The position numbers were made by a program, and so were the translations under genes. The notes under the pieces were generated by a model. The model saw nothing but the letters and a program-made list of their open reading frames with translations. It did not search any database and was not told the origin of the DNA. This document shows, one piece after another, positions 1 to 13,707 of a stretch of DNA of 13,707 bases; the stretch's first letter is position 1; each line of letters starts with the position of its first letter. The stretch is from a virus. The stretch is taken from UHGV virus genome UHGV-1773339; one strand, 5' to 3'.

Positions 1-154
1 ATTAGGAGAATAAATAGAGGAAACGTATCTCATTGATGATTTTCATCATGTTTCACTAGTTTTATACGATTTCCTTTCTTTTAAAAAATCCTTTATTATC
101 AATTTGTTATGAGCTTGTCGTTGTTTTTTTTTGCATTTAAGGGATAAAACAAAA

Positions 155-262
155 GATGATTTTGCTCAAATCTTCGTCTTTGCCTTTTTTGTTTTACTTT
201 GCTTTTTCTATGTCAATTTGCTAGAAATATGCAAAGCAATAATTATTAAGCAAAGTTATAAG
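155..262 (+). promoter_or_regulatory. Putative sopAB promoter/operator region with repeated CTTTGC/GCAAAG hexamers
   Basis: Hexamers tttgct 161-166, ctttgc 178-183, ctttgc 197-202, tttgct 217-222, gcaaag 231-236, gcaaag 250-255. Positions 217-235 form an inverted repeat tttgc-N9-gcaaa. GGAGA Shine-Dalgarno at 264-268, 8 nt before the sopA ATG. F SopA is known to autorepress through CTTTGC-type operator repeats. Exact -35/-10 not assigned. Confidence 0.5.
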
Positions 263-276
263 CTGGAGATGACAGT

Positions 277-1446
277 ATGTCCTTGAAAAAGTTATTACAA
301 GATTGTGTTACGCGCGGTCAAGAAATGACCCAAGCAATTGCTATAGCTCAATTCGGTGATGATAGTCCTGAAGCTCGGCGTATCACGCGTAGATGGGGGA
401 TAACTGAAGTAGCAGATTTAATTGGTGTAACTCCTCAAGCAATAAGAGATGCTGAGAAGAACGGGCGTTTACCTGCACCTGACTTTGAAATGAGAGGAAG
501 AGTTGAACGTCGTGCCGGTTATACCATAGATCAAATCAATAGTATGCGAGCTGTTTTTGGCAACCCAAACCAACGGCCACAAGATAAAAACCCAGTTGTG
601 CTTGCTGTTATGTCACACAAAGGCGGCGTTTATAAAACATCGTCTGCAGTACATCAGGCACAATGGCTAGCATTACAAGGTCATCGTGTTCTTTTAGTTG
701 AAGGTAACGATCCTCAGGGAACAGCCTCCATGTATCACGGTTATGTACCTGATTTACATATACATGCCGAGGATACTTTACTGCCATTTTACTTGGGCGA
801 ACGCGATAACGCTGAATATGCTATAAAACCAACATGCTGGCCTGGACTGGACATTATTCCTAGCTGCCTAGCTTTACACCGTATAGAAACAGATCTCATG
901 CAATATCATGCTCAGGGTAAATTGCCTCACCCTCCTCACCTGATGCTACGCGCAGCTATAGAATCAGTTTGGGATAACTACGATGTTATCGTTATAGATA
1001 GTGCTCCAAACCTCGGTACAGGAACCATTAACGTTGTTTGCGCAGCTGACGTTATCGTTGTTGCTACCCCTGCAGAATTATTTGATTACGCCTCTGTTCT
1101 ACAGTTTTTCACAATGCTTCTCGATCTCCTAGAAAGCGTTGACCTAGGCGGATTTGAGCCGACCGTTCGCTTGCTTCTGACTAAATATAGTCTCACTACA
1201 GGAAATCAATCACGATGGATGGAAGAGCAAATAAGAAATACATGGGGATCAATGGTATTACGTCAGGTTGTACGCGTTACCGATGAAGTAGGTAAAGGTC
1301 AGATAAAAATGCGAACAGTATTTGAACAAGCGGCAAACCAGCGTTCAACACTTAATGCATGGAGAAATGCCGTCTCTATATGGGACCCTGTTTGTCGAGA
1401 AATTTTTGATGATCTAATAAAACCTCGCTGGGAGAACGAAGAATGA
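277..1446 (+). CDS. sopA: Plasmid partition ATPase SopA (type Ia ParA with N-terminal DNA-binding extension)
   Basis: 389 aa ORF with ATG start and SD. Deviant Walker A box in 'VMSHKGGVYKTS'. The long N-terminal extension before the ATPase core is typical of type Ia ParA/SopA. The translation closely resembles F-plasmid SopA as I recall it. Stop overlaps the next gene start (ATGA). Confidence 0.93.
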   Translation: MSLKKLLQDCVTRGQEMTQAIAIAQFGDDSPEARRITRRWGITEVADLIGVTPQAIRDAEKNGRLPAPDFEMRGRVERRAGYTIDQINSMRAVFGNPNQRPQDKNPVVLAVMSHKGGVYKTSSAVHQAQWLALQGHRVLLVEGNDPQGTASMYHGYVPDLHIHAEDTLLPFYLGERDNAEYAIKPTCWPGLDIIPSCLALHRIETDLMQYHAQGKLPHPPHLMLRAAIESVWDNYDVIVIDSAPNLGTGTINVVCAADVIVVATPAELFDYASVLQFFTMLLDLLESVDLGGFEPTVRLLLTKYSLTTGNQSRWMEEQIRNTWGSMVLRQVVRVTDEVGKGQIKMRTVFEQAANQRSTLNAWRNAVSIWDPVCREIFDDLIKPRWENEE

Positions 1447-2432
1447 AACAACGCTCTCTTCTAAAAAATGCTCCGGATATTAATCGCATTATGAGTAATA
1501 ATCATCATGCACCTGAACATCAGCCGGTATCACCTATGGTTGGTGATTTAAAACGTCAACTGAGTTCATTAACCGGTAATAGCATAACTTTGCCAGTATG
1601 CGGACGTAATGTTAACTTTAAGTTAGAGACGATCCCCGCAGATAAAGTAGAAATGGCAACAATGGTATGGCTAGGTAATGAGCGTGATCAAGATTTATTA
1701 AATGAATCTTCTCTAGCTGATTTAATTCCATCTTTTCTAACTTCTGGGCAACAAAATCCGGCTTTCGCAAGAAAAGTGTCAGGTATTGTTGAAGTAGCTG
1801 ATGGTTCTCGAAGACGTAAAGCAGCCATTATAACTGGATGCGATTATCGTGTTCTTATTGGCGATTTAGATGATGAACAAATGCAATGGTTATCGCAGAT
1901 AGGCAACGACTATAGACCTATCAGCGCCTATGAAAGGGGGAAAAGATACCTGCGAAGGCTCCATGAATTTGACGGTAACGTAAAATCTTTAGCTGAAGCC
2001 GAAGGCGTGGATAGAAATATTATCAGCCGATGTATTAATACAGCCGGTTTACCTAAAGATATATTGGCAATATTTAACCATCCTGGTGAGTTATCAGCCA
2101 GAGCAGGAGACGCTCTTTTTAAAGCATATCAGGGACAGGAAGCAGCCATGAAAAATGCTGCATCTCAGTTGCTGAGGATGAAAAAATCAGGTGAAAGTTT
2201 AGATGCGCAAAGAATAATACAGGCTCTTCATGATTTCATTATTGTTGAGAAAAACAATTCACATGGAGAGAAAAGGGAAAAGAAATATGGAGACGGTGTT
2301 GTGGCGAAATATGGGAAAAATTTCACAACATTAAAATTAGATAACAGAAAAATACCATCGCACCTAATGAGTAAAATTGAATCTATTCTTGAGGAGGCGT
2401 TTGGAAATTCTTCCGATGTAAAAAATAACTAA
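1443..2432 (+). CDS. sopB: Plasmid partition centromere-binding protein SopB (ParB family)
   Basis: 329 aa ORF translationally coupled to sopA (ATGA overlap at 1443-1446). Recognisable SopB/ParB-like stretches (e.g. 'ITLPVCGR', 'GNERDQ', 'DGSRRRKAA', 'GNDYRPISAYERG'). Position immediately after the ParA gene. Ends at TAA 2430-2432. Confidence 0.92.
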   Translation: MKQRSLLKNAPDINRIMSNNHHAPEHQPVSPMVGDLKRQLSSLTGNSITLPVCGRNVNFKLETIPADKVEMATMVWLGNERDQDLLNESSLADLIPSFLTSGQQNPAFARKVSGIVEVADGSRRRKAAIITGCDYRVLIGDLDDEQMQWLSQIGNDYRPISAYERGKRYLRRLHEFDGNVKSLAEAEGVDRNIISRCINTAGLPKDILAIFNHPGELSARAGDALFKAYQGQEAAMKNAASQLLRMKKSGESLDAQRIIQALHDFIIVEKNNSHGEKREKKYGDGVVAKYGKNFTTLKLDNRKIPSHLMSKIESILEEAFGNSSDVKNN

Positions 2433-2448
2433 TAGCAGAAAATAGAAT

Positions 2449-2475
2449 AGACCCCATCAGTTATAGATGGGGTCT
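2449..2475. terminator. Bidirectional intrinsic terminator between convergent sopB and the tail/accessory operon
   Basis: Perfect 10-bp inverted repeat agaccccatc / gatggggtct with a 7-nt loop, followed by a T-rich run on the plus strand (taattttatt) and preceded by an A-rich run (T-rich on the minus strand). Lies between the sopB stop (2432) and the stop of the minus-strand ORF (2481). Confidence 0.7.
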
Positions 2476-2480
2476 TAATT

Positions 2481-2768
2481 TTATTCAAAAAATATAAATA
2501 CAAGTAAACACGCCACCACCGGCACAGCAAAATCCATCAGGCTTGCTACATCCCATGCACGCGGATCAAAACCGCCCCACCACGGCATATTCATACGCTT
2601 GCCATGTCCGAACATTTCAATCCAGCGATATTCTGCCTGGGTGTGTTCACGCGCAATGAAGAACGTACAACCGGCTATCGCTCCGTAAGCCCAGTTCCCG
2701 GTAAAAAGACCAATCAGTAGCTGCGCAGCCACAGCACAAAGAGCATGAAGGAAAGGTGTTATATCCAT
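2481..2768 (-). CDS. Small multi-pass membrane protein of unknown function (candidate moron)
   Basis: 95 aa ORF with ATG start. Perfect SD (AAGGAGGAG) sits between the upstream stop TAA and the ATG on the minus strand. Three hydrophobic segments (about residues 5-25, 26-40, 75-94) around a Trp/Gly-rich loop 'MFGHGKRMNMPWWGGFDPRAWD'. No family recognised. Confidence 0.75.
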   Translation of the reverse strand: MDITPFLHALCAVAAQLLIGLFTGNWAYGAIAGCTFFIAREHTQAEYRWIEMFGHGKRMNMPWWGGFDPRAWDVASLMDFAVPVVACLLVFIFFE

Positions 2769-2778
2769 TACTCCTCCT

Positions 2779-3483
2779 TTAACCGATATCGCTTCGGGAA
2801 GTTGATAACAGCTTTAATTCTGACTCAAGTTCATCAACTCTTTCTGTCAGTTTCTGGATATGGTGAATCAGTGGAACAACCAGACGTTCGTACATTACAC
2901 CTTCGGCAACAAGGCCATTGCTGGAAATAGCTTCCGGTGCATCATCTTCGTTAGCTGGTCGCCAGTGTACAAACTGAGGGGCAATTTCTCCTACTTCCTC
3001 GGCAATCAATCCGTAGAATCCCCAGTCACGCCTGTCATTTTCGCATTGCGACCTGTACCACACAGGGCGCATCTTGAAAATGAGATCGGCGTGCTCTGAA
3101 TCTATCGTCTCTACTGAATGTTTATAGCGAATAGACGATGTTGACCGCAGCACAGACGAAATTGCGGGGTCAGGATTAAGATAAAGGTTTGCCGCCGCTG
3201 TAGTCGTGCCCAATCCCCATAAATAAAACGCTTCACGGCCAGTCAGCGGGTAAAAATCTCCACCATAATTACCGCTTTCCAGAGCATTCACTTCCAGTTT
3301 GTTTTTCAGCTTATTATCCACTTCAGTTTTTGTGTATCTGGAGCTGATATCCTGCTTTGCACTGGTCATCTCAGTCTGAAGCGTTGATACTTTTCCGCTA
3401 ATTGAGGAAATATCTTCCTTAGCTTTACTGACATCTCCCTTCAGCGTGGTGATATCTCCCGGAATTACTGTCGATGTAGCCAT
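2779..3483 (-). CDS. Coiled-coil protein with C-terminal peptidase-S74-like intramolecular chaperone domain (tail-fibre/tailspike-type auto-processing domain)
   Basis: 234 aa ORF, ATG start preceded by GAGGGAGA SD. C-terminal half shows the S74/chaperone-of-endosialidase pattern: Ser116...Lys121 dyad spacing ('SSIRYK'), 'DWGFYGLIAEEVGEIAPQFV', 'MYERLVVPLIHHIQKL', terminal coiled coil 'VDELESELKLL'. N-terminal 60 residues are heptad-like coiled coil. Confidence 0.75.
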   Translation of the reverse strand: MATSTVIPGDITTLKGDVSKAKEDISSISGKVSTLQTEMTSAKQDISSRYTKTEVDNKLKNKLEVNALESGNYGGDFYPLTGREAFYLWGLGTTTAAANLYLNPDPAISSVLRSTSSIRYKHSVETIDSEHADLIFKMRPVWYRSQCENDRRDWGFYGLIAEEVGEIAPQFVHWRPANEDDAPEAISSNGLVAEGVMYERLVVPLIHHIQKLTERVDELESELKLLSTSRSDIG

Positions 3484-3492
3484 TTGTCTCCC

Positions 3493-3774
3493 TCACATCC
3501 AGCCACGAAGTTGATGTTCAACTACAACCGCGTATTCATCGAATAATGACGGTGTTTTCACATCATTAATGATGCGCACGTTTACAAAATATCCGTCTTC
3601 CTTAACACATACCGGTTCGCCATCTTCATTCAGCTCTCCGGTTTCTTTGTACACGTTTCCTATCACATCAATGAGAACATTGTTCTGCATCACCTCGTCA
3701 TCGTAATAACCAATGCTATCCATAAAGGCCGAAAAGTCGGCCTTGTTTATGAATTTGAGGGTTAAGTCTCGCAT
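3493..3774 (-). CDS. Hypothetical acidic 93 aa protein, translationally coupled to the tail fibre gene
   Basis: ATG start shares one base with the stop of the upstream fibre gene (TAATG at 3772-3776, minus strand). Its stop is 9 nt before the next ORF start. No motif recognised. The position suggests a fibre accessory or assembly factor. Confidence 0.6.
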   Translation of the reverse strand: MRDLTLKFINKADFSAFMDSIGYYDDEVMQNNVLIDVIGNVYKETGELNEDGEPVCVKEDGYFVNVRIINDVKTPSLFDEYAVVVEHQLRGWM

Positions 3775-5981
3775 TATATTCTTTCTCCCATTTGTGCATC
3801 TGTCAGTTCCTTATGCCAGATACGTAAATTGCGCACGTGTCCAAATAAATGCCTGTTACCTGATATTGATTGACCGCCTATATTTATTGGCCCTTCTGTA
3901 TAACGTTGTCTTGTGTGTTGTGATACACCAACAGCGCCAAAGTTACCGTTTATAACAGCACGCAATTCTTTCTGCTCTGTAAACTTAAACCCAGCAATAA
4001 ACCTGCGGGTTGTCCTGTTACAGTAGGCTTTATACTCGGTCTTTGTTCCTTTTCCGTTAGTTATAATTGAGCGCGCGCCTCCAGAGGTAAAACCAAAATA
4101 CATATAACTTTCATCAGCAACATCCGTTGTTGCGCCAGTTATTGACACGTTAAGAAGCCTTGCTGAACCTTCACTGTTTGGCATTTTGTCCCAGTTGATA
4201 TTAACTTCCATAAGAACGCTTAACGGGGGCGTTGACCAGTTCAGTCTTATTGGCATTATTACCACTTCACTAGCCCGTGTAACTGCCACATCTGATGTAA
4301 CGATAAATGATGATGCACACGATCCTTTTTCAAATTGCGGCGTAGTAAACATTATCTGATCGCCTTTTTTGATCGCCCTTTTATCTGCTCCCATTTCAAA
4401 GCGCCCATACATGCTTTTTGCTTCTGGTGATTTATATGTAAATTCGACGCGTAACCATCCGTTAGCTTCTCTGTATATGACATGATTTACAGCATCCCCA
4501 CCAGAAAAACCTAAAACATCACCAGTTTCGCAATCTATGTAGGAACCAGCTACCAGCGTGTTGCTTGTGCCGTCATCGTTAACGAAAGATATTCTGGGTC
4601 TTAACGTTATAATACCTTCTCCATTTATCTTCTTAACCCTACAGGACAAGGTAACAGATTCATTTGCAGCAACATCAATAACCCTACTGTATCCAGTAGA
4701 TATTATCGTCGCCCTTTCAGTGGTTGATGTTTCCTTTACATCGAACAAACCATATTTAAAACCATATTCATCAACCGATGTGGTTATTTCTATATTCTTG
4801 TCGTCATAGTTCCATAATGAAGGATTGTTACTATTAGTAAATGTATTTGTCCTCTGACCTTCAATTAATAAACCTTCCTTTTCAAAGCGCGGCTCGTTAA
4901 TTTCTGCAAAAGCAAATGAACCTGATTTGTTTATATACGTTGCAGAAGTGGAGCGAGTGAAAGATACAACCTTCTCTGATGGAAAAGTAATAACATCATC
5001 ACCGATAGTTACTTTTTTATAACCAGGAGCGAAACCAGTAATCATTTCCAGCGAATCGTTAAATGGTATCCACACATCAGGAAGCGGCTGCAATACTTGT
5101 TTATACGGCTCCGCAGCCTGGCTTGCATACTCTCTGGCTGCATCCTCACTTGCTTTAGCTGCTGTCTGGCTTGCTGCCGATGCTTGCGCCGAGTTCGCCG
5201 CTGCAGTCTCGCTTGTCTTTGCATTGGTTTCACTGGTTTTTGCAGCTTTTTGACTGTTTGCTGATGCAGTGGCAGAAGCAGCCGCCGCACTTGCAGAACC
5301 AGCTGCGGCACTCTCGCTTTCGGCTGCTGCATCCTGACTGCTTTTCGCCGCAGTTTCACTGACTTTGGCATTCGTTTCGCTGGTCTTCGCTGCCGTCTGG
5401 CTGGACTTTGCGTTAGTTTCGCTCGCCTTCGCGGCTGTTTCGCTATTTTTCGCGTTGGTTTCTGATTTTTTGGCTGCTGTCGCGGAGTTTGCCGATGCAG
5501 TCTGCGAGGTCGCTGCCGCCTGTGCGCTGTTAGCTGCATTCGTTTCTGAGGTTTTCGCCGCGTTCTTCGATGAAGCCGCTGCAGTTTCGGATTTCTTTGC
5601 CGCCGCTGCGCTCTGAGAGGCGGCTTCGGCGTTGCGTGCCGCTTCTTCCACCATTGCCTCAAAACGGCGCAATGCCTCCGGCATGACATCATCTTCCGTC
5701 ATGGCACCGAGAAAATCATTCAGCGTACCTGGTCTGGAACCTTCATAGACGGTAATGGTCCCGGCATGTGAAGGCGGAAAACCTTCAACCAGCAGGGTGA
5801 CGCTGTACTGGCCATACTCAACATCCATGCTGTAACGTCCGGCTTCATCCGGATTTTCAGAAGCCACCGTGTTCACCAGTACCGTGGTGCTGTTACGCTT
5901 TGCCTTCAGTTGAATAGTGCAGTTCTGTATTGGTTTTCCCGCACCATCTTTCAGCACACCTGAGATTTTTACTGCTGCCAT
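3774..5981 (-). CDS. stf: Side tail fibre protein: lambda Stf-like N-terminal anchor, Ala-rich repeat stalk, novel distal region
   Basis: Long ORF. The track begins at a GTG (5987), but the ATG at 5981 gives 'MAAVKISGVLKDG...', matching the conserved Stf N-terminus as I recall it, with GGAG SD upstream. Residues about 120-285 are degenerate Ala-rich 'SETNAK/AAKTSE' repeats. The distal ~450 residues are encoded by lower-GC DNA and end in a LamG/concanavalin-like looking motif ('GNRHLFGHVRNLRIWHKELTDAQM'). Confidence 0.85.
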   Translation of the reverse strand: MAAVKISGVLKDGAGKPIQNCTIQLKAKRNSTTVLVNTVASENPDEAGRYSMDVEYGQYSVTLLVEGFPPSHAGTITVYEGSRPGTLNDFLGAMTEDDVMPEALRRFEAMVEEAARNAEAASQSAAAAKKSETAAASSKNAAKTSETNAANSAQAAATSQTASANSATAAKKSETNAKNSETAAKASETNAKSSQTAAKTSETNAKVSETAAKSSQDAAAESESAAAGSASAAAASATASANSQKAAKTSETNAKTSETAAANSAQASAASQTAAKASEDAAREYASQAAEPYKQVLQPLPDVWIPFNDSLEMITGFAPGYKKVTIGDDVITFPSEKVVSFTRSTSATYINKSGSFAFAEINEPRFEKEGLLIEGQRTNTFTNSNNPSLWNYDDKNIEITTSVDEYGFKYGLFDVKETSTTERATIISTGYSRVIDVAANESVTLSCRVKKINGEGIITLRPRISFVNDDGTSNTLVAGSYIDCETGDVLGFSGGDAVNHVIYREANGWLRVEFTYKSPEAKSMYGRFEMGADKRAIKKGDQIMFTTPQFEKGSCASSFIVTSDVAVTRASEVVIMPIRLNWSTPPLSVLMEVNINWDKMPNSEGSARLLNVSITGATTDVADESYMYFGFTSGGARSIITNGKGTKTEYKAYCNRTTRRFIAGFKFTEQKELRAVINGNFGAVGVSQHTRQRYTEGPINIGGQSISGNRHLFGHVRNLRIWHKELTDAQMGERI
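5133..5630 (-). repeat. In-frame degenerate tandem repeats encoding the Ala/Ser/Thr-rich fibre stalk
   Basis: Repeated gc(a/t)gc-rich DNA encoding reiterated KxSETNAK / TAAKxSE units. This generates the spurious Arg-rich and Ala/Phe-rich ORFs seen in other frames and strands. Confidence 0.7.
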
Positions 5982-5990
5982 ATCCACTCC

Positions 5991-6019
5991 ACAAAAAAGC
6001 CCGCCTGAACCGGCGGGCT
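5991..6019 (-). terminator. Intrinsic terminator downstream of lom
   Basis: On the minus strand: stem agcccgcc / ggcgggct with a 6-nt loop, followed immediately by TTTTTT (plus-strand A-run 5993-5998). Sits between the lom stop (6046) and the stf start. Confidence 0.75.
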
Positions 6020-6045
6020 GTCATAACACTGTGTTACCTGGCTAA

Positions 6046-6645
6046 TCAGAATTTATAACCGACACCCACGATGAAACCGTCAGTGCGCCAGTCGCCACTG
6101 CCGGAGCCTTCATAAGCAATATCAATGGCCACGGATTCGGTCGGGTTAAACTGCACGCCAGCTCCCCACGCCAGAGACGTGTTGCTGTGGCGACCGTCAT
6201 CACTTCCGGTCAGCACATCGTGCGTTTTCCCCTTGTTGTCAGTTACGCGGAGATAATCCCCGGAGAACGTCGAAACACGGCTGTAAGCCACACCTGCCAT
6301 CGCATAAGCACTGAACCATTCATTCACGCGTACAGATGGCCCCGCCATCATGCTGAACCAGCGGTTACGCACTGAATCTTCATGCCAGCGGGTATCGCTG
6401 TAATGCGTTTTTTGCTCATCTTTGGCATTGGCATAACTGAATGACGTCACCAGCCCCAGCGTGTCCGTAAATTCATAACGGTATTTCACGTTAATGCCCT
6501 TCAGGTCATCACTGCCTGGCATATCAGTATGGGCCTGAAGATACCCGGCGCTTAGTGTGGACTGATGCTCTGCTGCGCTCGCTGGCGTACCAGCGGCAAC
6601 CAGCCAGACTACTGCGGACAGAATAACAGCACATAATTTACGCAT
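6046..6645 (-). CDS. lom: Outer-membrane beta-barrel protein of the Lom/Ail/PagC/OmpX family
   Basis: 199 aa. N-terminal signal peptide ('...AAGTPASAAEH'), alternating amphipathic beta-strand pattern, C-terminal '...DWRTDGFIVGVGYKF' with terminal Phe typical of OMP barrels. Synteny (directly after J) as in lambda. Confidence 0.9.
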   Translation of the reverse strand: MRKLCAVILSAVVWLVAAGTPASAAEHQSTLSAGYLQAHTDMPGSDDLKGINVKYRYEFTDTLGLVTSFSYANAKDEQKTHYSDTRWHEDSVRNRWFSMMAGPSVRVNEWFSAYAMAGVAYSRVSTFSGDYLRVTDNKGKTHDVLTGSDDGRHSNTSLAWGAGVQFNPTESVAIDIAYEGSGSGDWRTDGFIVGVGYKF

Positions 6646-6669
6646 AATTACCTCTCGCTTTTCTGCAAT

Positions 6670-6693
6670 AAAAAAGGCGTCATTTCTGACGCC
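6670..6693 (-). terminator. Intrinsic terminator downstream of J
   Basis: On the minus strand: stem ggcgtca / tgacgcc with a 4-nt loop, followed by TTTTTTATT. About 20 nt after the J stop and about 25 nt before the lom ATG. Confidence 0.7.
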
Positions 6694-6712
6694 CGTATTG
6701 GGGTTATAAAAT

Positions 6713-9700
6713 TCAGCTGATACTGATGCCTGCGGTGGCTTTCTTCATCACCACAACCAGCAAATCGCTGATACTTGCTGTGGGATACCAGCCATTTACC
6801 CACCATGCTGATACCGAAAACTCCAGTGTCATTACGCCACTGCCTGCAGGCATATCAATAACACCCGTGTAAATCAGAGTATTATCCAGAGCCGTTCGGT
6901 TATAAATTTCAGCCCCGTTTTTCTTCACTATCAGGCGGCATGACGAATAAGTATCGCTATTCTCCCGTTCATGTCTGGCACCGCTGAAAGCCACCGCTGG
7001 AATAACAATTTGCCGGTCAAACGGCTGATCGTCATAAACCCTGACGGTAATGGTCCCTGATGGCCACCGTTCCGGTGCACGGGAGTCCCGGGGGAAAGCT
7101 TTGCCCACTGTTTTAACGAGATCGCCTTCAATCTGGTTCGCGGACAGTTTTCCCAGAACCCGGCAATTCTCGTTAATCGTGACGTTGTTGAGCGTCCCGG
7201 AGTTCGCATTCACGTTACCGCTGATATCGGCATTTTTCGCCGTCAGCCGCCCGTCCGGTGTCAGGGAAAATGCCGGAGGATTACCGCCGCTGGTAATGGT
7301 GGGAGCCGTCAGGTATTTCAGGAACACTTCGTTCATGAATATCTGATCGCCCTGACCAACAAACATCGGCTTTGTGTTGCCATTCGCAGGATTAATCATC
7401 GCAATCCTGTCTGCCGCCAGCAGCACCTGACTCTGCATGCCGTCAGGGGTGTTTTCAATACCGGCACCAATACCCGCGATATAAAGGCGTCCGTCCTGCA
7501 TCTGCTGCAGCTTCACAGCCCACATGCTGTTCAGGTTATTATTTGTATCAACCTGAACCTTCTGTATCTGCTGGATCGCTGCACTCTGGTCTTCCAGTTT
7601 CTTATTGACGGTCTGCGTGATTTCATTACTGACATCCGTGATGGACGTTCTGATTTCCGCCAGGTCAGGCGCAAGCTGACCGTTATCAATCTGCGTCCAC
7701 AGCTCCTGAGCCAGATGGGTTTTCCCTATCTCTCCTTTGAAAAAATCCAGATAGCCGGATGCATCATCACTCGGCTGGCCAACAGCCTCCACGAATGCCG
7801 ATTTGCCAACGGTGTTCACACTGCGGATGTAAAAATAATAATCATGGCCCGGCTTGATATTGATACTGGCAGCTATCCAGTACAGCGCCGTGCCAAGATA
7901 GCGGGCTGTGGTTTCAACCTGCCTGATATCCGCAATCCGTTTTTCCGAGAACCAGAACTCAAACTGTACCGTCGGGTCATAAACCGCAAGATGCGGCGTG
8001 GCGGTTATCTGAAAATAGCCCGGCGTCAGCTCAATCCGCGACGGCGCTGCCGGTGCGGCAATCCGGAACGATACCGACGCCGGATCGCCCTGCTGCCCCC
8101 AGGCATTTGCCGCCCGGACTGTCAGCCTGTAGTTTCCCAACGCCAGTTGCGTGAAGCGGTATGTGGTTTCCGTCGTCCGGGCCGTGCTGACCAGCCGCTC
8201 ACTGCCGTCATCCGCTGCCACGGTCAGGCGAAGCATAAAGCTCACGCCCTTCACCACCTTCGGCGTGTCCCAGCGCGCCAGCACCTGGTATTCCCCGCTG
8301 TCTGCGGTGACTTCGGCGGTCAGGTGCTGCACCGCTGGCGGCGTGACACCATTCACCGTGCCGCTCTGGTCGCCGTCAAAGTGCGCCCCGTTATCCACGA
8401 TGGCTTCTTTTTCCGGTACATGCTGCACGGCAGTGATGGCATACGTGCCGTCGTCGTTCTCACGGATACTCACGCAGCGGAACAGGCGCTGGCGCAGCGT
8501 CGGCAGCTTCAGCCCCCACACGCTGTATTCTGCAACGCCGTCAGGAACCCGGCTCACTTTCACCTTCACGCCGTCGGTGACGGACTGGACCTCCACGCTG
8601 ACCGGATTGCCACTTCCGTCAACCAGGCTTATCAGCGTGGTGCCGGAGGATGGCAGCGTGATTTCACGGTCGAGCGTCAGCGTCCGGGTCTGGCTGTTCA
8701 CAGCCAGCACGCGCCCGCCGATGCTGATACCGGCATAGTCATCATCGCAGATTTCAATGACATCGCCCGGTACATGGCGAAGCCCTTCAGCACCCACGCT
8801 GAAGTCCACGGTCTGCGTTTCCAGCAGTTCCGTTTTAATCAGCCACAGCCCGGCGCGGTGTGCCTGCCCCCGGCTGGTACAGCCAAAGGCATCCATCTTC
8901 GTGACGTTACGACCGTAACGGGCAATGGCCTGCGTATCTTCAACAAGCTCTGTCGCCGTCTCCCAGCCGTTATTCGGGTCAATCCAGTTCACCTCAACGG
9001 CATTATGGCGGTCCTTCAGGGCGCTGAAACTGTAGCGGAACGGCGCGCCATCATCCGGCATCACCACATTACTGCGGTTATAGGTCCACACCTTATCCGA
9101 CGGTCGGTCCTGCACGAACGTCAGCGTCTGCCCGTTCCATACCGGCATACAGCGCATCGCCGAGCAGAAATCACTGAGCACATCCCACGCCTTGCGCTGT
9201 GTGGTCAGGTACGCATTACAGGTGATGCGCGGCTCCGTGCCGCCAAAGCCGTCCGGCACTGACTGGTCGCAGTACTGGCCGATGACATACAGCGCCCATT
9301 TATCCACATCCGCCGCACCAAGACGTTTCCCCATGCCGTAGCGCGGGTGGGTCAGCATATCCCACAGACACCAGGCCATGTTGTTGCTGTATGCCGGTTT
9401 AAACGTTCCGTCCCAGATACCGCTGTATTGCCGCGTCTGCGGGTTATAATTCGACGGCACCTGCAGAATACGCCCGCGCAGATGATAATTACGGCTCACC
9501 TGCTGGCTGCCGAACTGCTCCGAGTCCACCTGCACGCCGACCAGTGCCGTGTTCGGGTAGCACTGTTTCACATCGATGATTTCGGTGTATGACGACCAGA
9601 GCGTTTTGTTCTGCAGCTGGTCTGTGGTGCTGTCCGGCGTCATCCTGCGCATCCGTATATTGAACGGGCGCGGCGGCAGGTTATCCACCACCACCGAGGC

Positions 9701-10192
9701 CAGATACTGCGAGGTGGTTTTGCCCTTAATGGTGATGTCTTTTTCCGTCACCCAGCCACCGTTACGCTGTATCTGAACCAGCAGTCGGACCTCCGACGGA
9801 TTCCTGTCACCCTTTGAGGTGGTTTCCACCAGTGCCTGTACACCGAAGGTAAAGCGCAGACGGTCGATGTTTGCCGACGTGATGGTCCGGGTGATCGGCG
9901 TGTCATATTTCACTTCCGTACCCAGCACCGTCTCGGAGCCGGAGGATTCAAATCCCTCCGGCGGTGTCTGCTCCTGCTCACCTGCCCGGAAAACCACCGT
10001 GACACCGGAGATATTGGTATTCCCCTCACTGTCCAGCACTGGCGTACTGTTCAGCAGCACGCTTTTTAATCCATCCACCGGACCTTCAACCGGCCCTTCG
10101 CTGATGGCATCGATCACACTCAGCAACTGCGTGGACTTCAGGTTGTCCTTCGCTTCGCGCGGGGTATGCCCCTTACTGCTGCCTTTACCCAT
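6713..10192 (-). CDS. J: Tail tip / host specificity protein J (central tail fibre)
   Basis: 1159 aa ORF with ATG start, N-terminus '[20 protein letters not shown]' as in lambda gpJ. Size and position after I match the lambda order. The final ~1 kb of the gene has lower GC, as expected for a receptor-binding region. Confidence 0.95.
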
Positions 10193-10213
10193 TCCTCACG
10201 CTCCATAAACGAC

Positions 10214-10234
10214 AAAACCGCCCGCAGGCGGTTT
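10214..10234 (-). other. Stem-loop in the I-J intergenic region (possible attenuator or RNA stability element)
   Basis: Inverted repeat aaaaccgcc / ggcggttt with a 4-nt loop. On the minus strand it is followed by tgtcgtttat (only partly U-rich) and then the J SD/ATG. Confidence 0.4.
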
Positions 10235-10252
10235 CACATAAAACATTTTGCA

Positions 10253-10924
10253 TCAGCGACCAATCACCACAACCTGACCACCGTCCCCCTCGTCTGCCGT
10301 GCTGATCTCCTGAGAAACCACGCGTGACCCCACGCGCATTTCCCCGTACAGAACAGGCAGAACATTGCCCTGGGCAACCATGTTATCCAGTGAGGAGAAA
10401 TAGGTGTTCTGCTTACCGTTATCCGTTGTCTGTGTACGGGGAGTTCTGGCTTTCGGTGCCAGCATCTGCGCCACACCACCGAGCACCATACTGGCACCGA
10501 GAGAAAACAGGATGCCGGTCATACCACCGGCCCCAATGGCTGCCCCCCATGCTGCAAGGGTGGCTCCGGCGGTAAAGAATGATCCGGCAATGGCGGCAGC
10601 CCCCAGGACAATCTGGAATACGCCACCTGACTTGGCCCCGGCGACTCTGGGAACAATATGAATCACAGCGCCATCAGGCAGAGTCTCATGTAACTGCGCC
10701 GTTAACCCGGACGTGCTGACGTCCCGCCCGGCAATCCGTACCTGATACCAGCCGTCGCTCAGTTTCTGACGAAACGCCGGGAGCTGTGTGGCCAGTGCCC
10801 GGATGGCTTCAGCCCCCGTTTTCACACGAAGGTCGATGCGGCGACCAAATCGTTGTAAATCCCCGTAAAGGCAGATGCGCGCCATGCCCGGTGACGCCAG
10901 AGGGAGTGTGTGCGTCGCTGCCAT
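10253..10924 (-). CDS. I: Tail tip assembly protein I
   Basis: 223 aa. Gly/Ala-rich hydrophobic central segment. Order K-I-J and size match lambda gpI. Confidence 0.9.
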   Translation of the reverse strand: MAATHTLPLASPGMARICLYGDLQRFGRRIDLRVKTGAEAIRALATQLPAFRQKLSDGWYQVRIAGRDVSTSGLTAQLHETLPDGAVIHIVPRVAGAKSGGVFQIVLGAAAIAGSFFTAGATLAAWGAAIGAGGMTGILFSLGASMVLGGVAQMLAPKARTPRTQTTDNGKQNTYFSSLDNMVAQGNVLPVLYGEMRVGSRVVSQEISTADEGDGGQVVVIGR

Positions 10925-11565
10925 TTGTCGGTGTACCTCTCTCGTTTGCTCAGTTGTTCAGGAATATGGTGCAGCAGCTCGCCGTCGCCGCAGTAAATTG
11001 CGGCGTGATTCGGCACCGATGAACCAAAACAGCACAGCAGCACATCGCCCGGCTGTGCCGCTGACAACGGCACCTGATACAGCCCCGTCGCCTCCAGATT
11101 ATCCAGATAGAGATTCTGGCCGTTACGCCACCAGTCATCCTCACGATGAAAGTCCGGCATCTCAATCCCCGCCAGATGATAAGCATCCCGGAACAGGGTG
11201 TAACAGTCCGTCACACCGTGCTCAAAGCGCCGCCCGGTAAGATGCGGCACACAGCGGAACTTATGAATCGTCCCCCGGCAGACCAGCCACCACGGCAAAT
11301 CACTCTGCACCTGCAGCCGCCGGTCGGCCTCACTCAGCCAGGGCAGACCACCGGGGTGGCTGTGGACCAGCGCCACAATCTCACCCTGCATTTCTGCCTG
11401 CAGCCAGTCTTCCGGCGACATACGGAAATACGCCTCCGGCTCACCGGAGATATTCACGCAGGGGAAATATCTTTCCCCCTCCGGCGTGCTTACCACGAAG
11501 CCGCACGACTCCGCTGGCGCACATCGCCGGGCGTGCGCCAGAATCGCTGATTCTGTCTGTGTCAT
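10822..11565 (-). CDS. K: Tail tip assembly protein K (JAMM/MPN plus NlpC/P60-like peptidase domains)
   Basis: 247 aa. JAMM motif HxHx7Sx2D present ('HSHPGGLPWLSEAD', H68/H70/S78/D81). Downstream Cys121 ('VTDCYTLF') and His residues consistent with an NlpC/P60-type fold. Overlaps I by 103 nt in another frame. Confidence 0.9.
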   Translation of the reverse strand: MTQTESAILAHARRCAPAESCGFVVSTPEGERYFPCVNISGEPEAYFRMSPEDWLQAEMQGEIVALVHSHPGGLPWLSEADRRLQVQSDLPWWLVCRGTIHKFRCVPHLTGRRFEHGVTDCYTLFRDAYHLAGIEMPDFHREDDWWRNGQNLYLDNLEATGLYQVPLSAAQPGDVLLCCFGSSVPNHAAIYCGDGELLHHIPEQLSKRERYTDKWQRRTHSLWRHRAWRASAFTGIYNDLVAASTFV

Positions 11566-11570
11566 GGGAT

Positions 11571-12269
11571 TTACTGCGAAAGTTTGTTAATGGAAAGGAA
11601 GCCGCCAAAGTTGCCGACGTTATTGCGAAACTTACAGCCACTCAGGCATTTGCTGCATTTATCCTTCGTGATATCGGACGTCGGCTGGTCATATTCATCC
11701 GCGACAGCCGGACCGTGATAACCGCACTCATCACCGCGATAGGTCCAGGTGCAGGTGTTGGCCAGCATGATACGTCCCGGAAAAACAGCGCCATCCGTTT
11801 CCGTCGGCGTGGACAGTACAAAGGAGGCACTCACCGCGCTCAGTTCGCTGCACTGCTCGATGCGCCAGCGGCTGATCACCTCCTGCTCCGGATCGGCGTC
11901 ACTGTTTCCGTTGACGAAGTTCACCGCATCCAGAAAACGGGCGTAAACCTTACGCCGGACCACCGTTCCGCCGACCAGACTCTGCAGGTCTTCCGCCATC
12001 CCGGTGACCATGCCGTGCAGGTTAGAAACCGTCAGTGTCGGACGGGCAGCACTGCCCTTGCCGTTCAGTTCAAATCCCGTCCCCTGAATGGGATACGGCT
12101 GATACTGTCGCCCCTGCCAGGTGACCGGCTCACCTTTTTCGTTCTGCTCATTACAGAAAAAATAACGTTCTCCACCGACCTCTGTCAGATCGATTTCCCA
12201 GAGCACCACGCTGGCCGACTGCTCCGCACGGGTGCATTCATTCAGTGTTTCCTGCCGGATATCCTGCAT
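11571..12269 (-). CDS. L: Tail tip protein L
   Basis: 232 aa. C-terminal Cys cluster ('DECGY...DKCSKCLSGCKF') consistent with the Fe-S-binding C-terminus described for lambda gpL. Start overlaps the M stop (TGATG). Confidence 0.92.
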   Translation of the reverse strand: MQDIRQETLNECTRAEQSASVVLWEIDLTEVGGERYFFCNEQNEKGEPVTWQGRQYQPYPIQGTGFELNGKGSAARPTLTVSNLHGMVTGMAEDLQSLVGGTVVRRKVYARFLDAVNFVNGNSDADPEQEVISRWRIEQCSELSAVSASFVLSTPTETDGAVFPGRIMLANTCTWTYRGDECGYHGPAVADEYDQPTSDITKDKCSKCLSGCKFRNNVGNFGGFLSINKLSQ

Positions 12270-12598
12270 CAGTTCACCACCTGTTTAAACTCTGCGCTGA
12301 ACTCAACACGCAGCATACTGACCCGCGACGACCATTTTGCGCAGGTCACCTTTATCTGCCTGTAACCATAAGGCGGCGTCCACAGAAAGGCCTTCCAGCC
12401 TCCGTGCTCTGCCAGAAACGACTCCAGCGCCGTGGCCTCCTCACGGGAGACAGACAGCGTCACGCTGTACGTTTTCAGGTTGGCATTCAGCCCGGCAGGC
12501 GCTCGCTGGGAATAGCCATCACCAAAGCGCACCTTTCTTACAGAAGGGGACGAAGCCACATCCATACCGGGTTTCACTTTCCAGCGGAAGGTTTTCAT
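12269..12598 (-). CDS. M: Tail tip protein M
   Basis: 109 aa, the size of lambda gpM. Start overlaps the H stop (ATGA at 12595-12598). Position between H and L. Confidence 0.92.
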   Translation of the reverse strand: MKTFRWKVKPGMDVASSPSVRKVRFGDGYSQRAPAGLNANLKTYSVTLSVSREEATALESFLAEHGGWKAFLWTPPYGYRQIKVTCAKWSSRVSMLRVEFSAEFKQVVN

Positions 12599-13707
12599 CG
12601 TCCACCTCCGGAGAACAGGCCACCATCACGCATCTGTGTCTGAATTTCATCACGGGCACCCTTGCGGGCCATGTCATACACCGCCTTCAGAGCAGCCGGA
12701 CCTATCTGCCCGTTCGTGCCATCGTTATTGATCTCGATGTTGTACTGCGGGGCAAACATCGCCATACCTGAACCACCAATATCCGCCACAACCCCCAGCT
12801 TACCGTCAGCACCACGACGCAGTGGCAGAATGGCTTCAGGTCCCGCTTCCCCCATCACACCCGCGCCTTTTGCAAAAGCAAAAAACGTCGGACGGTTAAC
12901 CACCGTGCCACTGTAACGACTCAAATCAGCAGACTGATAAATCCCCCCATTGGCATTCAGGGAAAGGCTGCTGAGATCAAATCCCAGTACACTGCCAATC
13001 CCTTTTATCGATTTCATCATGGTTGCCTGCGCCAGGATTTTCGCCATATCTGACAGCACAGAAGAGGTGAAGGATTTGAAATTGAGTTTGCCGGTAGTGA
13101 CAAAAGTTGCCAGGCCATTTCCCATGTTGCTGAAGGCTGACGAGAACACCTGTTCTGCTGTTCCTGCCGTATTATCTGCATCCACGGTAAAATCCTGAAA
13201 TGCACGCAGGACTCCGTTTTTCCAGTTACCCTGCACAACTTCAAGCTGTTGCCAGTAACGGCGATTCTCATTCAGTTGTCGGTTCAGGCTCTCCGTCAGC
13301 GCCTGCTCGGCCTTTCTGTAGTCATCCGTGTTATATGTTCCTTTCTGCTCACTATCCCGCCTCAACTGCTCCAGCTGTTGCTGGTATTTCTGGCGAAGAC
13401 TCAGTTGTATCTGATATCGCTGCCGCTGCTGATCACCCATACCCACCGTGGCGATATCCAGGTCATGTTGCTGACGCTGAGCGCGCTCTTCTTCAGCCAG
13501 TTGACTGGTCAGCTGAATTGTTTTTTTCTTCAGCTCGTTGAGTGCCGTCTGTTTCTGAAGCTCCTGCTGTTTTACATCCAGCAGCGTCAGTGCCTGAATC
13601 AGTTCATCTTTACGGGCCAGCACACTCTTTTCATCTGCCGTCAGTTTTTTCCCGTCCAGGTCGCTGATGCGCTGCTGCAGAGCCAGAAGCTGTTTATGCG
13701 CTTCTGT
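12595..13707 (-). CDS. H: Tail tape measure protein H, C-terminal part (5' end lies beyond the window)
   Basis: Reading frame stays open from 12598 to the right window edge. The track start at 13623 is an internal GTG. Coiled-coil-rich sequence followed by Gly-rich C-terminus. Position upstream of M. Confidence 0.88.
   Translation of the reverse strand, partial: TEAHKQLLALQQRISDLDGKKLTADEKSVLARKDELIQALTLLDVKQQELQKQTALNELKKKTIQLTSQLAEEERAQRQQHDLDIATVGMGDQQRQRYQIQLSLRQKYQQQLEQLRRDSEQKGTYNTDDYRKAEQALTESLNRQLNENRRYWQQLEVVQGNWKNGVLRAFQDFTVDADNTAGTAEQVFSSAFSNMGNGLATFVTTGKLNFKSFTSSVLSDMAKILAQATMMKSIKGIGSVLGFDLSSLSLNANGGIYQSADLSRYSGTVVNRPTFFAFAKGAGVMGEAGPEAILPLRRGADGKLGVVADIGGSGMAMFAPQYNIEINNDGTNGQIGPAALKAVYDMARKGARDEIQTQMRDGGLFSGGGR

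What the first reader, a model, noticed from the sequence alone, without database searches (positions are those of the whole stretch)
2433..2480. No tandem sopC-like centromere array downstream of sopB
In F the centromere is a tandem array of 43-bp repeats immediately after sopB. Here only 48 bp separate sopB from a convergent gene, and that space holds a single hairpin terminator. The centromere must lie elsewhere; in N15, as I recall, several palindromic centromere sites are dispersed around the genome. The 2449-2475 palindrome (GACCCCATC arms) does not resemble the F sopC inverted repeat, so I interpret it as a terminator, but SopB binding is worth testing.
Basis: partly seen in the sequence, partly recalled or inferred. 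Interest (0 to 1): 0.4.

Follow-up and report, generated by a model that had tools for sequence, protein, structure and literature searches.

The report
sopB terminator hairpin, centromeres lie elsewhere
The 48-bp gap after the partition gene sopB most likely holds an ordinary two-way transcription terminator, and relatives with the same sop genes carry their partition sites far away as scattered 16-18-bp palindromes, as already described for phage N15.

Summary
Observation confirmed. sopB ends at 2432 and a convergent 95-aa gene ends at 2481. The 48-bp gap holds one perfect 10-bp-stem, 7-nt-loop hairpin (2449-2475). No tandem array lies there or anywhere near the sop operon.

Interpretation supported. 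The window belongs to an N15-like linear phage-plasmid. The hairpin is best read as a bidirectional intrinsic terminator:
- The N15 and phiKO2 GenBank records annotate a putative terminator at the same position.
- PY54, other E. coli relatives and most of 20 IMG/VR sopB loci also have a GC-core hairpin just after sopB, with at least 10 unrelated stem sequences.

The hairpin does not resemble the SopB site (8 of 14 mismatches, chance level). The published N15 centromere sites IR1-4 are GTGCGACCnnGGTCGCAC.

Two complete relatives whose sop operon is 99.7-100% identical carry five perfect copies. These lie 26-36 kb from sopB, syntenic with N15 IR1-4, and are the only repeated palindrome in the genome. 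In those relatives only about 457 bp, with no array, separate sopA from the telomere.

Limits: the window's own complete element was not found, so centromere location is inferred from relatives. Termination and SopB binding were not tested. This is already-known biology and of low interest.

The parts
178..255 (+). Probable SopA (ParA) operator in the sopAB promoter region. Hexamers CTTTGC at 178 and 197, ATTTGC at 216, and inverted GCAAAG at 231 and 250.
   Evidence: and direct reading. The direct hexamers have 13-bp intervals. The inverted pairs 197/231 and 216/250 each have a 28-bp spacer. This is the architecture described for F, N15 and phiKO2 in PMC8465637.
277..1446 (+). sopA, a type Ia partition ATPase (389 aa).
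   Evidence: NCBIfam NF010259 'plasmid-partitioning protein SopA': 734 bits against a cut-off of 725, full length.
1443..2432 (+). sopB, the centromere-binding ParB-family protein (329 aa).
   Evidence: NCBIfam NF010252: 405 bits against a cut-off of 274. 74% identical to N15 SopB. E = 6e-39 to the F SopB structure 3MKY. Recognition helix DRNIISRCIN, compared with N15 DRNIVNRCMN and F [10 protein letters not shown]. The arginines equivalent to F R190, R195 and R219 are conserved.
2433..2480 (.). The 48-bp intergenic gap between the convergent sopB and 95-aa genes. It contains no tandem repeat.
2449..2475 (.). Hairpin with a 10-bp perfect stem (6 G-C pairs) and a 7-nt loop. Predicted bidirectional intrinsic terminator. 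A/U pairing can extend the stem to 2441-2485 on the + strand.
   Evidence: Putative terminators are annotated at the same position in N15 and phiKO2. The hairpin's position is conserved while its sequence is not.
2481..2768 (-). Convergent 95-aa hydrophobic protein gene, the last gene of the side-tail-fibre module.
   Evidence: The homologue in phage 21 is annotated as a putative membrane protein with 2 TMDs. No Pfam or NCBIfam hit. Homology to ordinary lambdoid phages begins at 2500-2508.

Best explanation
The window is the telomere-proximal arm of an N15-like linear plasmid prophage. From the telomere it runs: sopA, sopB, side tail fibre genes, J, and the tape-measure gene.

The 2449-2475 hairpin is a bidirectional intrinsic (rho-independent) terminator. 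On the + strand it ends the sopAB transcript, which is made in the plasmid state, so that it does not run antisense into the tail genes. On the - strand it can end transcripts leaving the tail-fibre module.

The hairpin is not a SopB site. Partition in this element uses N15-type centromere sites. These are single 16-18-bp palindromes, (G)TGCGACC-nn-GGTCGCA(C), scattered tens of kb away in the replication, regulation and late-gene region, outside this window. SopB dimers bind each palindrome through the helix-turn-helix plus the conserved arginine equivalent to F R219. They nucleate partition complexes that SopA moves.

Shown here:
- the anatomy of the gap;
- the predicted fold;
- the absence of any array or SopB-type site in the window;
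- the presence, synteny and exclusivity of the palindromes in genomes with the same sop operon.

Inferred:
- that termination actually occurs;
- that this SopB binds the palindromes;
- that the window's own element carries them.
For: Element identity:
- Best phage hit is PhiR46_1, which has annotated telL/telR sites, ParA and ParB.
- p13TMH22-2 is 100% identical over window 1-3500. It carries protelomerase and an N15-like telomere palindrome whose tip lies 181 bp before window position 1.

Terminator:
- 10-bp stem with 6 G-C pairs, 7-nt loop, T-rich tails on both strands; fold z-scores of -5.6 and -4.5.
- The N15 record annotates a 'putative rho-indep. transcription terminator' between gene 27 (sopB) and the convergent gene 26. 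The phiKO2 record annotates a 'terminator putative' after its sopB.
- Hairpins at the same place in N15, phiKO2, PY54 and E. coli relatives have different stems.
- 16-18 of 20 diverse IMG/VR sopB loci have a GC-core hairpin within about 110 bp of the sopB match end, with at least 10 distinct stem sequences.
- PY54 shares the loop (GTTATA) and tail (TTAATTTTATT) with the window but has a different, still complementary stem.

Not a SopB site:
- The best match in 2425-2480 to TGCGACCnnGGTCGCA has 8 of 14 mismatches, the bulk of the window-wide distribution.
- The hairpin arm occurs nowhere else in the 46-kb relative.

Centromere elsewhere:
- N15 IR1-4 sequences come from PMC7205306 Table 4. They sit in N15 at 33480, 35931, 41125 and 45562.
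- There are five perfect GCGACC(AC/GT)GGTCGC sites in PhiR46_1 and in p13TMH22-2, where 0.01 are expected by chance. Four of them are full 18-bp GTGCGACC..GGTCGCAC.
- Their positions are syntenic with N15: inside repA, after Q, before the late operon, and near the cos-proximal genes.
- An unbiased palindrome census of PhiR46_1 finds this as the only family with more than 2 copies.
- Two IMG/VR contigs with the exact hairpin junction, and an NCBI contig encoding the identical SopB, also carry the IR.

Specificity:
- N15 SopB residues 179-200 carry the DNA specificity (PMC2910045).
- The window's SopB matches 17 of those 22 residues and keeps the N15-type D-R-N start of the recognition helix, where F has S-R-K.
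Against: - The U-tracts are interrupted (+ strand UAAUUUUAUU, - strand AUUCUAUUUU), so termination may be only partial.
- The terminator scan as a whole does not exceed shuffles.
- There are no transcript 3'-end data.
- During lytic growth, Q-antiterminated late transcription would probably read through the hairpin on the - strand (inference from lambdoid biology).
- One Klebsiella relative (48ST307) has only 11 bp and no hairpin after sopB, so the feature is not universal.
- The window's own complete genome was not found. p13TMH22-2 is identical only over 1-3500, and is 98.5% identical with 93% coverage over 1-12733. The presence of IR sites in this exact element is therefore inferred.
Confidence: 0.85

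Rival explanations
1. The 2449-2475 palindrome is a SopB-binding site, either a local centromere or a regulatory site, on double-stranded DNA.
For: It is a perfect palindrome directly after sopB, where F keeps sopC. The right arm contains TGGGGTC, which matches the F half-site TGGGACC at 5 of 7 positions (read).
Against: - 8 of 14 mismatches to the N15-type consensus, which is chance level.
- No match to GGGACCnnGGTCCC at up to 2 mismatches.
- The 5/7 half-sites are everted and 11 bp apart, whereas true sites are inverted and 2 bp apart.
- The arm sequence is unique in the 46-kb relative.
- The hairpin sequence is replaced by unrelated hairpins in relatives whose SopB is 75-83% identical.
- The genome already has five perfect cognate sites.
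Confidence: 0.03
2. The hairpin is mainly a 3'-end stabiliser that blocks exonucleases on sopAB mRNA. Actual termination would be Rho-dependent or occur further downstream.
For: The U-tracts are interrupted on both strands. Stable GC-core hairpins at operon ends can protect mRNA (general knowledge).
Against: The N15 and PY54 counterparts have canonical or similar T-runs right after the stem. The hairpin is flanked symmetrically by A-rich and T-rich runs, as in bidirectional terminators. Only 5 bp separate the stem from the convergent gene's stop, leaving no room for another terminator.
Confidence: 0.09
3. The hairpin has no selected function and is a by-product of the recombination joint between the sop module and the lambdoid tail-fibre module.
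For: Homology to ordinary lambdoid phages starts at 2500-2508, about 25-35 bp from the hairpin. The sop homology of the 90%-identical relatives ends inside the sopB 3' end at about 2083-2122. The region is therefore mosaic.
Against: A perfect 10-bp stem is not expected by chance in 48 bp (0 of 200 shuffles fold as well). Independent lineages all keep some hairpin at this position.
Confidence: 0.03

Closest known systems
Phage-plasmid N15 sop system with dispersed centromere sites IR1-IR4 (Ravin & Lane 1999, cited in PMC7205306; Grigoriev & Lobocka 2001 and Dorokhov et al. 2003 from my own knowledge)
   Same: - sopA-sopB operon next to telR.
- No sopC array after sopB.
- A terminator hairpin between sopB and a convergent gene.
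- SopB 74% identical.
- Identical IR core TGCGACCnnGGTCGCA at syntenic positions in relatives with the same sop operon.
- The same SopA operator hexamer layout.
   Different: - Five sites instead of four in the two complete relatives, including a pair only 220 bp apart.
- A different hairpin sequence.
- The convergent gene is a small membrane protein of a lambda-type side-tail-fibre module, not a umuD-like gene.
- The recognition helix differs from N15 at 3 of 10 positions (I/V, S/N, I/M).
F plasmid sopABC
   Same: - Homologous SopA and SopB (SopB HTH and C-terminal region E = 6e-39 to 3MKY).
- The CTTTGC operator layout.
- A binding site of the same 7-nn-7 palindromic form, differing at one base per half-site (PMC2910045).
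   Different: F has 10-12 tandem 43-bp repeats immediately after sopB (PMC7205306, PMC8465637). Here there is no array and no F-type site.
phiKO2 and PY54 linear phage-plasmids
   Same: The same sopAB (or spyAB), hairpin, convergent-gene anatomy. PY54's hairpin shares its loop and tail with the window's.
   Different: Different stem sequences. Their sop genes are 64-76% identical to the window's at the DNA level. Their centromere sites were not examined here.

Membership tests
Intrinsic (rho-independent) terminator | GC-rich stem of about 5-12 bp with a short loop | tested here: met
   10 perfect pairs, 6 of them G-C, with a 7-nt loop. -21.3 and -19.2 kcal/mol, z = -5.6 and -4.5.
Intrinsic (rho-independent) terminator | U-tract immediately 3' of the stem | tested here: inconclusive
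   + strand UAAUUUUAUU and - strand AUUCUAUUUU. Both pass the scan's rule of at least 5 T in 8, but both are interrupted.
Intrinsic (rho-independent) terminator | Located at the 3' end of a transcription unit | tested here: met
   16 nt after the sopB stop and 5 nt before the stop of the convergent gene. The same position is annotated as a terminator in N15 and phiKO2.
Intrinsic (rho-independent) terminator | Structure conserved while sequence drifts | tested here: met
   At least 10 different stem sequences at this position across N15-like elements. These are non-homologous hairpins, so this is not a column-by-column covariation test. The exception is window against PY54, which share a loop and tail.
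Intrinsic (rho-independent) terminator | Transcripts actually end there | not testable with these tools
   Needs Term-seq, 3' RACE or a read-through reporter.
F-type sopC centromere | Tandem 43-bp repeats directly downstream of sopB | tested here: not met
   TRF finds no array. The gap is only 48 bp.
F-type sopC centromere | 16-bp site TGGGACCnnGGTCCCA | tested here: not met
   0 matches at up to 2 mismatches in the window. In the relative, the only matches at up to 2 mismatches are the five N15-type sites.
N15-type dispersed Sop centromere system | Type Ia SopA/SopB operon closely related to N15's | tested here: met
   NCBIfam SopA and SopB equivalogs score above their cut-offs. SopB is 74% identical to N15 SopB.
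N15-type dispersed Sop centromere system | Linear plasmid prophage with protelomerase and hairpin telomeres | tested here: met
   Shown in relatives only. PhiR46_1 has telL/telR annotated. p13TMH22-2 has an N15-like telomere palindrome 181 bp before window position 1, plus protelomerase genes.
N15-type dispersed Sop centromere system | Several single palindromes TGCGACCnnGGTCGCA far from sop | tested here: met
   Five perfect sites in each of two complete relatives whose sop operon is 99.7-100% identical, with 0.01 expected by chance. Also present on contigs with the exact hairpin or the exact SopB. None in the window. The window's own remainder was not available.
N15-type dispersed Sop centromere system | SopB binds these sites and they stabilise a plasmid in cis | not testable with these tools
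   Shown experimentally for N15 (PMC7205306 and the references it cites). Not done for this element.

The most novel reading that the evidence does not exclude
In this lineage the extra, closely spaced IR pair could act as a composite main centromere. The pair is two perfect 18-bp sites 220 bp apart, where N15 has the single IR4. It would be an intermediate between N15's isolated single sites and F's tandem array. Separately, this SopB's recognition helix (N15-like D-R-N start, F-like IxxRCIN end) might give it dual F/N15 specificity. Neither idea concerns the hairpin itself, which I consider an ordinary terminator.
Probability: 0.1. Interest if true: 0.3.

Novelty: already known. Interest (0 to 1): 0.08.

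Why it matters
It matters little beyond annotation. It confirms that this very common E. coli phage-plasmid lineage follows the N15 plan: the sop operon at the telomere, a terminator after sopB, and centromere palindromes scattered elsewhere. The exact SopB protein is listed in 2114 blocks of the assembly index.

Two practical points follow.
- A missing sopC next to sopB does not mean a defective partition system in these elements.
- Short palindromes here can be confused in either direction. The N15 RefSeq record annotates the stretch containing centromere site IR4 (45562-45577) as a putative terminator stem-loop (45560-45584).

Tried and rejected
Locating the window's own genome failed.
- It was not found in the phage, plasmid or complete E. 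coli genome collections. It was not found in GTDB genome contigs, IMG/VR, or the 10 longest contigs encoding the identical SopB (judged by gene layout).
- I first took p13TMH22-2 to be the source because it is 100% identical over 1-3500. I corrected this. That record has an IS3 in the tail-fibre gene and diverges after window 12733.

Searches that found nothing:
- F-type sopC sites in the window.
- Rfam, no family at gathering threshold.
- Pfam and NCBIfam for the 95-aa gene.

Technical problems:
- The first hairpin survey used max_distance 12 and missed even the window's own hairpin. I repeated it with 30.
- Most fetched loci were not exported to the Python sandbox. The unbiased palindrome census was therefore run only on PhiR46_1 and the window.
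- Ravin & Lane 1999 (PMC94163) is not held in the paper library. The IR sequences were taken from PMC7205306 Table 4 instead.

A column-wise covariation test of the hairpin was not attempted, because the hairpins of different lineages are not alignable.

Full report
WHAT IS THERE

The sopB ORF runs 1443-2432. A convergent ORF runs 2481-2768 on the minus strand. The gap 2433-2480 is 48 bp.

The gap contains one perfect inverted repeat: AGACCCCATC (2449-2458), a 7-nt loop AGTTATA, and GATGGGGTCT (2466-2475). An A-rich run precedes it and a T-rich run follows it. Folded as RNA it gives -21.3 kcal/mol on the + strand (z = -5.6) and -19.2 kcal/mol on the - strand (z = -4.5). None of 200 shuffles folds as well in either case.

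The simple terminator scan lists the hairpin on both strands among the best sites in the window. The scan's total count is not above shuffles, so I do not lean on it alone.

Tandem Repeats Finder at its lowest threshold finds no array in or near the gap. No F-type or N15-type SopB site occurs anywhere in the window.

WHAT THE ELEMENT IS

SopA and SopB score above the curated cut-offs of the NCBIfam SopA and SopB equivalogs. SopB is 74% identical to N15 SopB. It matches the F SopB crystal structures.

The best phage hit, PhiR46_1 (PV340565.1), is a 46.3-kb genome with annotated telL and telR sites. ParA and ParB sit at the telR end.

The E. coli plasmid p13TMH22-2 is 100% identical to window 1-3500. 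Its 75-kb 'circular' record is a fold-back mis-assembly of a roughly 46-kb hairpin-ended linear replicon:
- The sop and tail genes are mirrored around an N15-like telomere palindrome (...TATCAGCACATAATTCCCCATTATACGCG|CGTATAATGGGG...). Its centre lies 181 bp before window position 1.
- Two protelomerase copies are mirrored around the other end.

The window is not this record throughout. Over 1-12733 it is 98.5% identical with 93% coverage. The record has an IS3 in the tail-fibre gene that the window lacks. I could not find the window's own genome. Statements about sequence outside the window therefore rest on relatives.

THE HAIRPIN AS A TERMINATOR

The N15 RefSeq record annotates a 'putative rho-indep. 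transcription terminator' stem-loop between gene 27 (sopB) and the convergent gene 26. The phiKO2 record annotates a 'terminator putative' after its sopB.

Hairpins found just after sopB:

| Element | Hairpin |
|---|---|
| N15 | AAAAAAAGCCCCAC-atac-GTGGGGCTTTTCGCTTTTT |
| phiKO2 | GTGGCCCATAT-aat-ATATGGGCCAT |
| PY54 | AAAGCCCTGCGA-gttata-TTGCGGGGCTTTAATTTTATT |
| E. coli relatives with about 90% sop identity | ATCCCCTGC-att-GCAGGGGAT, in a 32-bp gap |

I also surveyed 20 diverse IMG/VR loci encoding SopB relatives of 54-100% identity. Of these, 16-18 have a GC-core hairpin within about 110 bp of the end of the sopB match. The stems have at least 10 unrelated sequences.

PY54's hairpin shares the loop and the TTAATTTTATT tail with the window's. 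Its stem is different but still complementary.

A structure that is kept in place while its sequence is freely replaced, with A/T runs on both sides, is what a bidirectional intrinsic terminator looks like. A protein-binding site would keep its sequence.

Weak points:
- The U-tracts are interrupted.
- One Klebsiella relative has no hairpin.
- Termination has not been measured.

THE HAIRPIN IS NOT A SopB SITE

The published N15 centromere sites are (PMC7205306 Table 4):

| Site | Sequence |
|---|---|
| IR1 | GTGCGACCACGGTCGCAC |
| IR2 | GTGCGACCTCGGTCGCAC |
| IR3 | GTGCGACCATGGTCGCAC |
| IR4 | GTGCGACCACGGTCGCAC |

They differ from the F site at one base per half-site (PMC2910045).

The best alignment of TGCGACCnnGGTCGCA anywhere in 2425-2480 has 8 of 14 mismatches. 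This is typical of random positions in the window. The hairpin arm GACCCCATC occurs only at the hairpin in the 46-kb relative. The right arm has a 5-of-7 resemblance to the F half-site (TGGGGTC against TGGGACC), but the half-sites are in the wrong relative orientation and spacing.

WHERE THE CENTROMERE IS

In N15 the four sites lie as follows:
- 33480, inside repA;
- 35931, after Q;
- 41125, just before the late promoter;
- 45562.

PhiR46_1 has five perfect GCGACC(AC/GT)GGTCGC sites, at 7933, 10376, 14755, 17795 and 18015.

p13TMH22-2 has the same five, at record positions 43668, 43888, 46928, 51307 and 53750. Two further copies are assembly mirror images. The chance expectation is 0.01. Four of the five are full 18-bp GTGCGACC..GGTCGCAC palindromes.

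The sites are syntenic with N15 IR1-4, and one position is doubled into a pair 220 bp apart. They lie 26-36 kb from the sopB stop along the linear prophage.

An unbiased census of all palindromes with 6-bp arms and 0-4-bp spacers in PhiR46_1 finds this family as the only one with more than two copies. In 50 shuffles the largest family was 1-2.

Further support:
- Two metagenomic viral contigs carrying the exact 78-bp sopB-hairpin junction also carry the 18-bp IR elsewhere on the same contig.
- An NCBI contig encoding the identical SopB has the IR inside repA at the predicted place.

On the other side of the operon, the relatives have only about 457 bp between the telomere tip and the sopA start codon. 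This stretch holds short TGTTCT-type repeats near the telomere and the SopA operator. It holds no sopC-like array.

SPECIFICITY

PMC2910045 reports that N15 SopB residues 179-200 carry all the determinants of site specificity. It also reports that R190, R195 and R219 (F numbering) are conserved contacts.

| Protein | Residues equivalent to N15 179-200 |
|---|---|
| Window | GNVKSLAEAEGVDRNIISRCIN |
| N15 | GNVKALAEAEGIDRNIVNRCMN |
| F | [22 protein letters not shown] |

The window keeps the N15-type D-R-N where F has S-R-K. It also keeps the arginine in ELSARAGDAL that corresponds to F R219. This fits the N15-type sites found in genomes carrying this exact protein. Binding itself is inferred.

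COMPARISON AND VERDICT

In every respect tested this is the N15 arrangement, which has been in the literature since 1999-2003.

The only departures from N15 are minor:
- a fifth site, forming a 220-bp pair;
- a different terminator sequence;
- a different convergent gene.

Novelty: already known. Interest: low.

Noticed in passing
window 178-255: Five hexamers matching the F/N15 SopA operator. CTTTGC at 178 and 197, ATTTGC at 216, inverted GCAAAG at 231 and 250. They show the published 13-bp intervals and two 28-bp-spaced inverted pairs (PMC8465637). These are the only Sop-related cis-elements in the window.
   Followed up: partly
window 34-48 and 155-168: Small palindrome TGATGAtttTCATCA upstream of the sop promoter, with a partial direct copy (GATGATTTTGCTCA) 120 bp downstream. 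Seen in the identical stretch of L002 (family D3). Function unknown; it could relate to the reported control of N15 sop expression by protelomerase or Sop proteins.
   Followed up: no
L002 (NZ_CP019258.1) 14833-15747; also L177, L179-L186 and IMG/VR contig 2724679539_000001: Many public assemblies of this element are fold-back artefacts. sopB-sopA is mirrored as sopA-sopB around the hairpin telomere, giving 'circular' records of 60-90 kb and even joins into Mb-scale contigs. Eight of the 10 longest contigs encoding this SopB show the mirror.
   Followed up: partly
L012 (N15, NC_001901.1) 45560-45584: The N15 record annotates a 'putative rho-indep. transcription terminator' stem-loop that contains centromere site IR4 (45562-45577, followed by GCTTTTCC).
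   Followed up: partly
L003 8667-8902 (record 43667-43902); L001 17794-18029: Two perfect 18-bp IR sites only 220 bp apart flank a non-coding stretch where N15 has a single IR4 next to a cytosine methylase gene. The same 220-bp spacing recurs in IMG/VR contigs (for example L030, L019, L026).
   Followed up: partly
window 2500-2508 and about 2083-2122: Two mosaic joints. Homology to ordinary, non-plasmid lambdoid phages starts 19-27 bp inside the 3' end of the 95-aa gene. The sop homology of the 90%-identical E. coli relatives ends inside the sopB 3' region, so the SopB C-terminal part and the terminator are exchanged together.
   Followed up: partly
window 3774-5987: An intact 737-aa side-tail-fibre ORF. 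The closest record, p13TMH22-2, has an IS3-family insertion and further differences in this gene. Short 13-21-bp tandem repeats lie inside it at 5118-5444.
   Followed up: no
window 12734-13707: The last roughly 1 kb (the tape-measure gene end) does not match the relatives that share the sop operon. It matches other lambdoid phages such as PhiR55_1 and PhiR47_1. This is another mosaic boundary.
   Followed up: no
window 1443-2432: This exact 329-aa SopB is listed in 2114 blocks of the public assembly index, so this phage-plasmid lineage is very common. Its recognition helix DRNIISRCIN is N15-like at the start and F-like at the end.
   Followed up: partly
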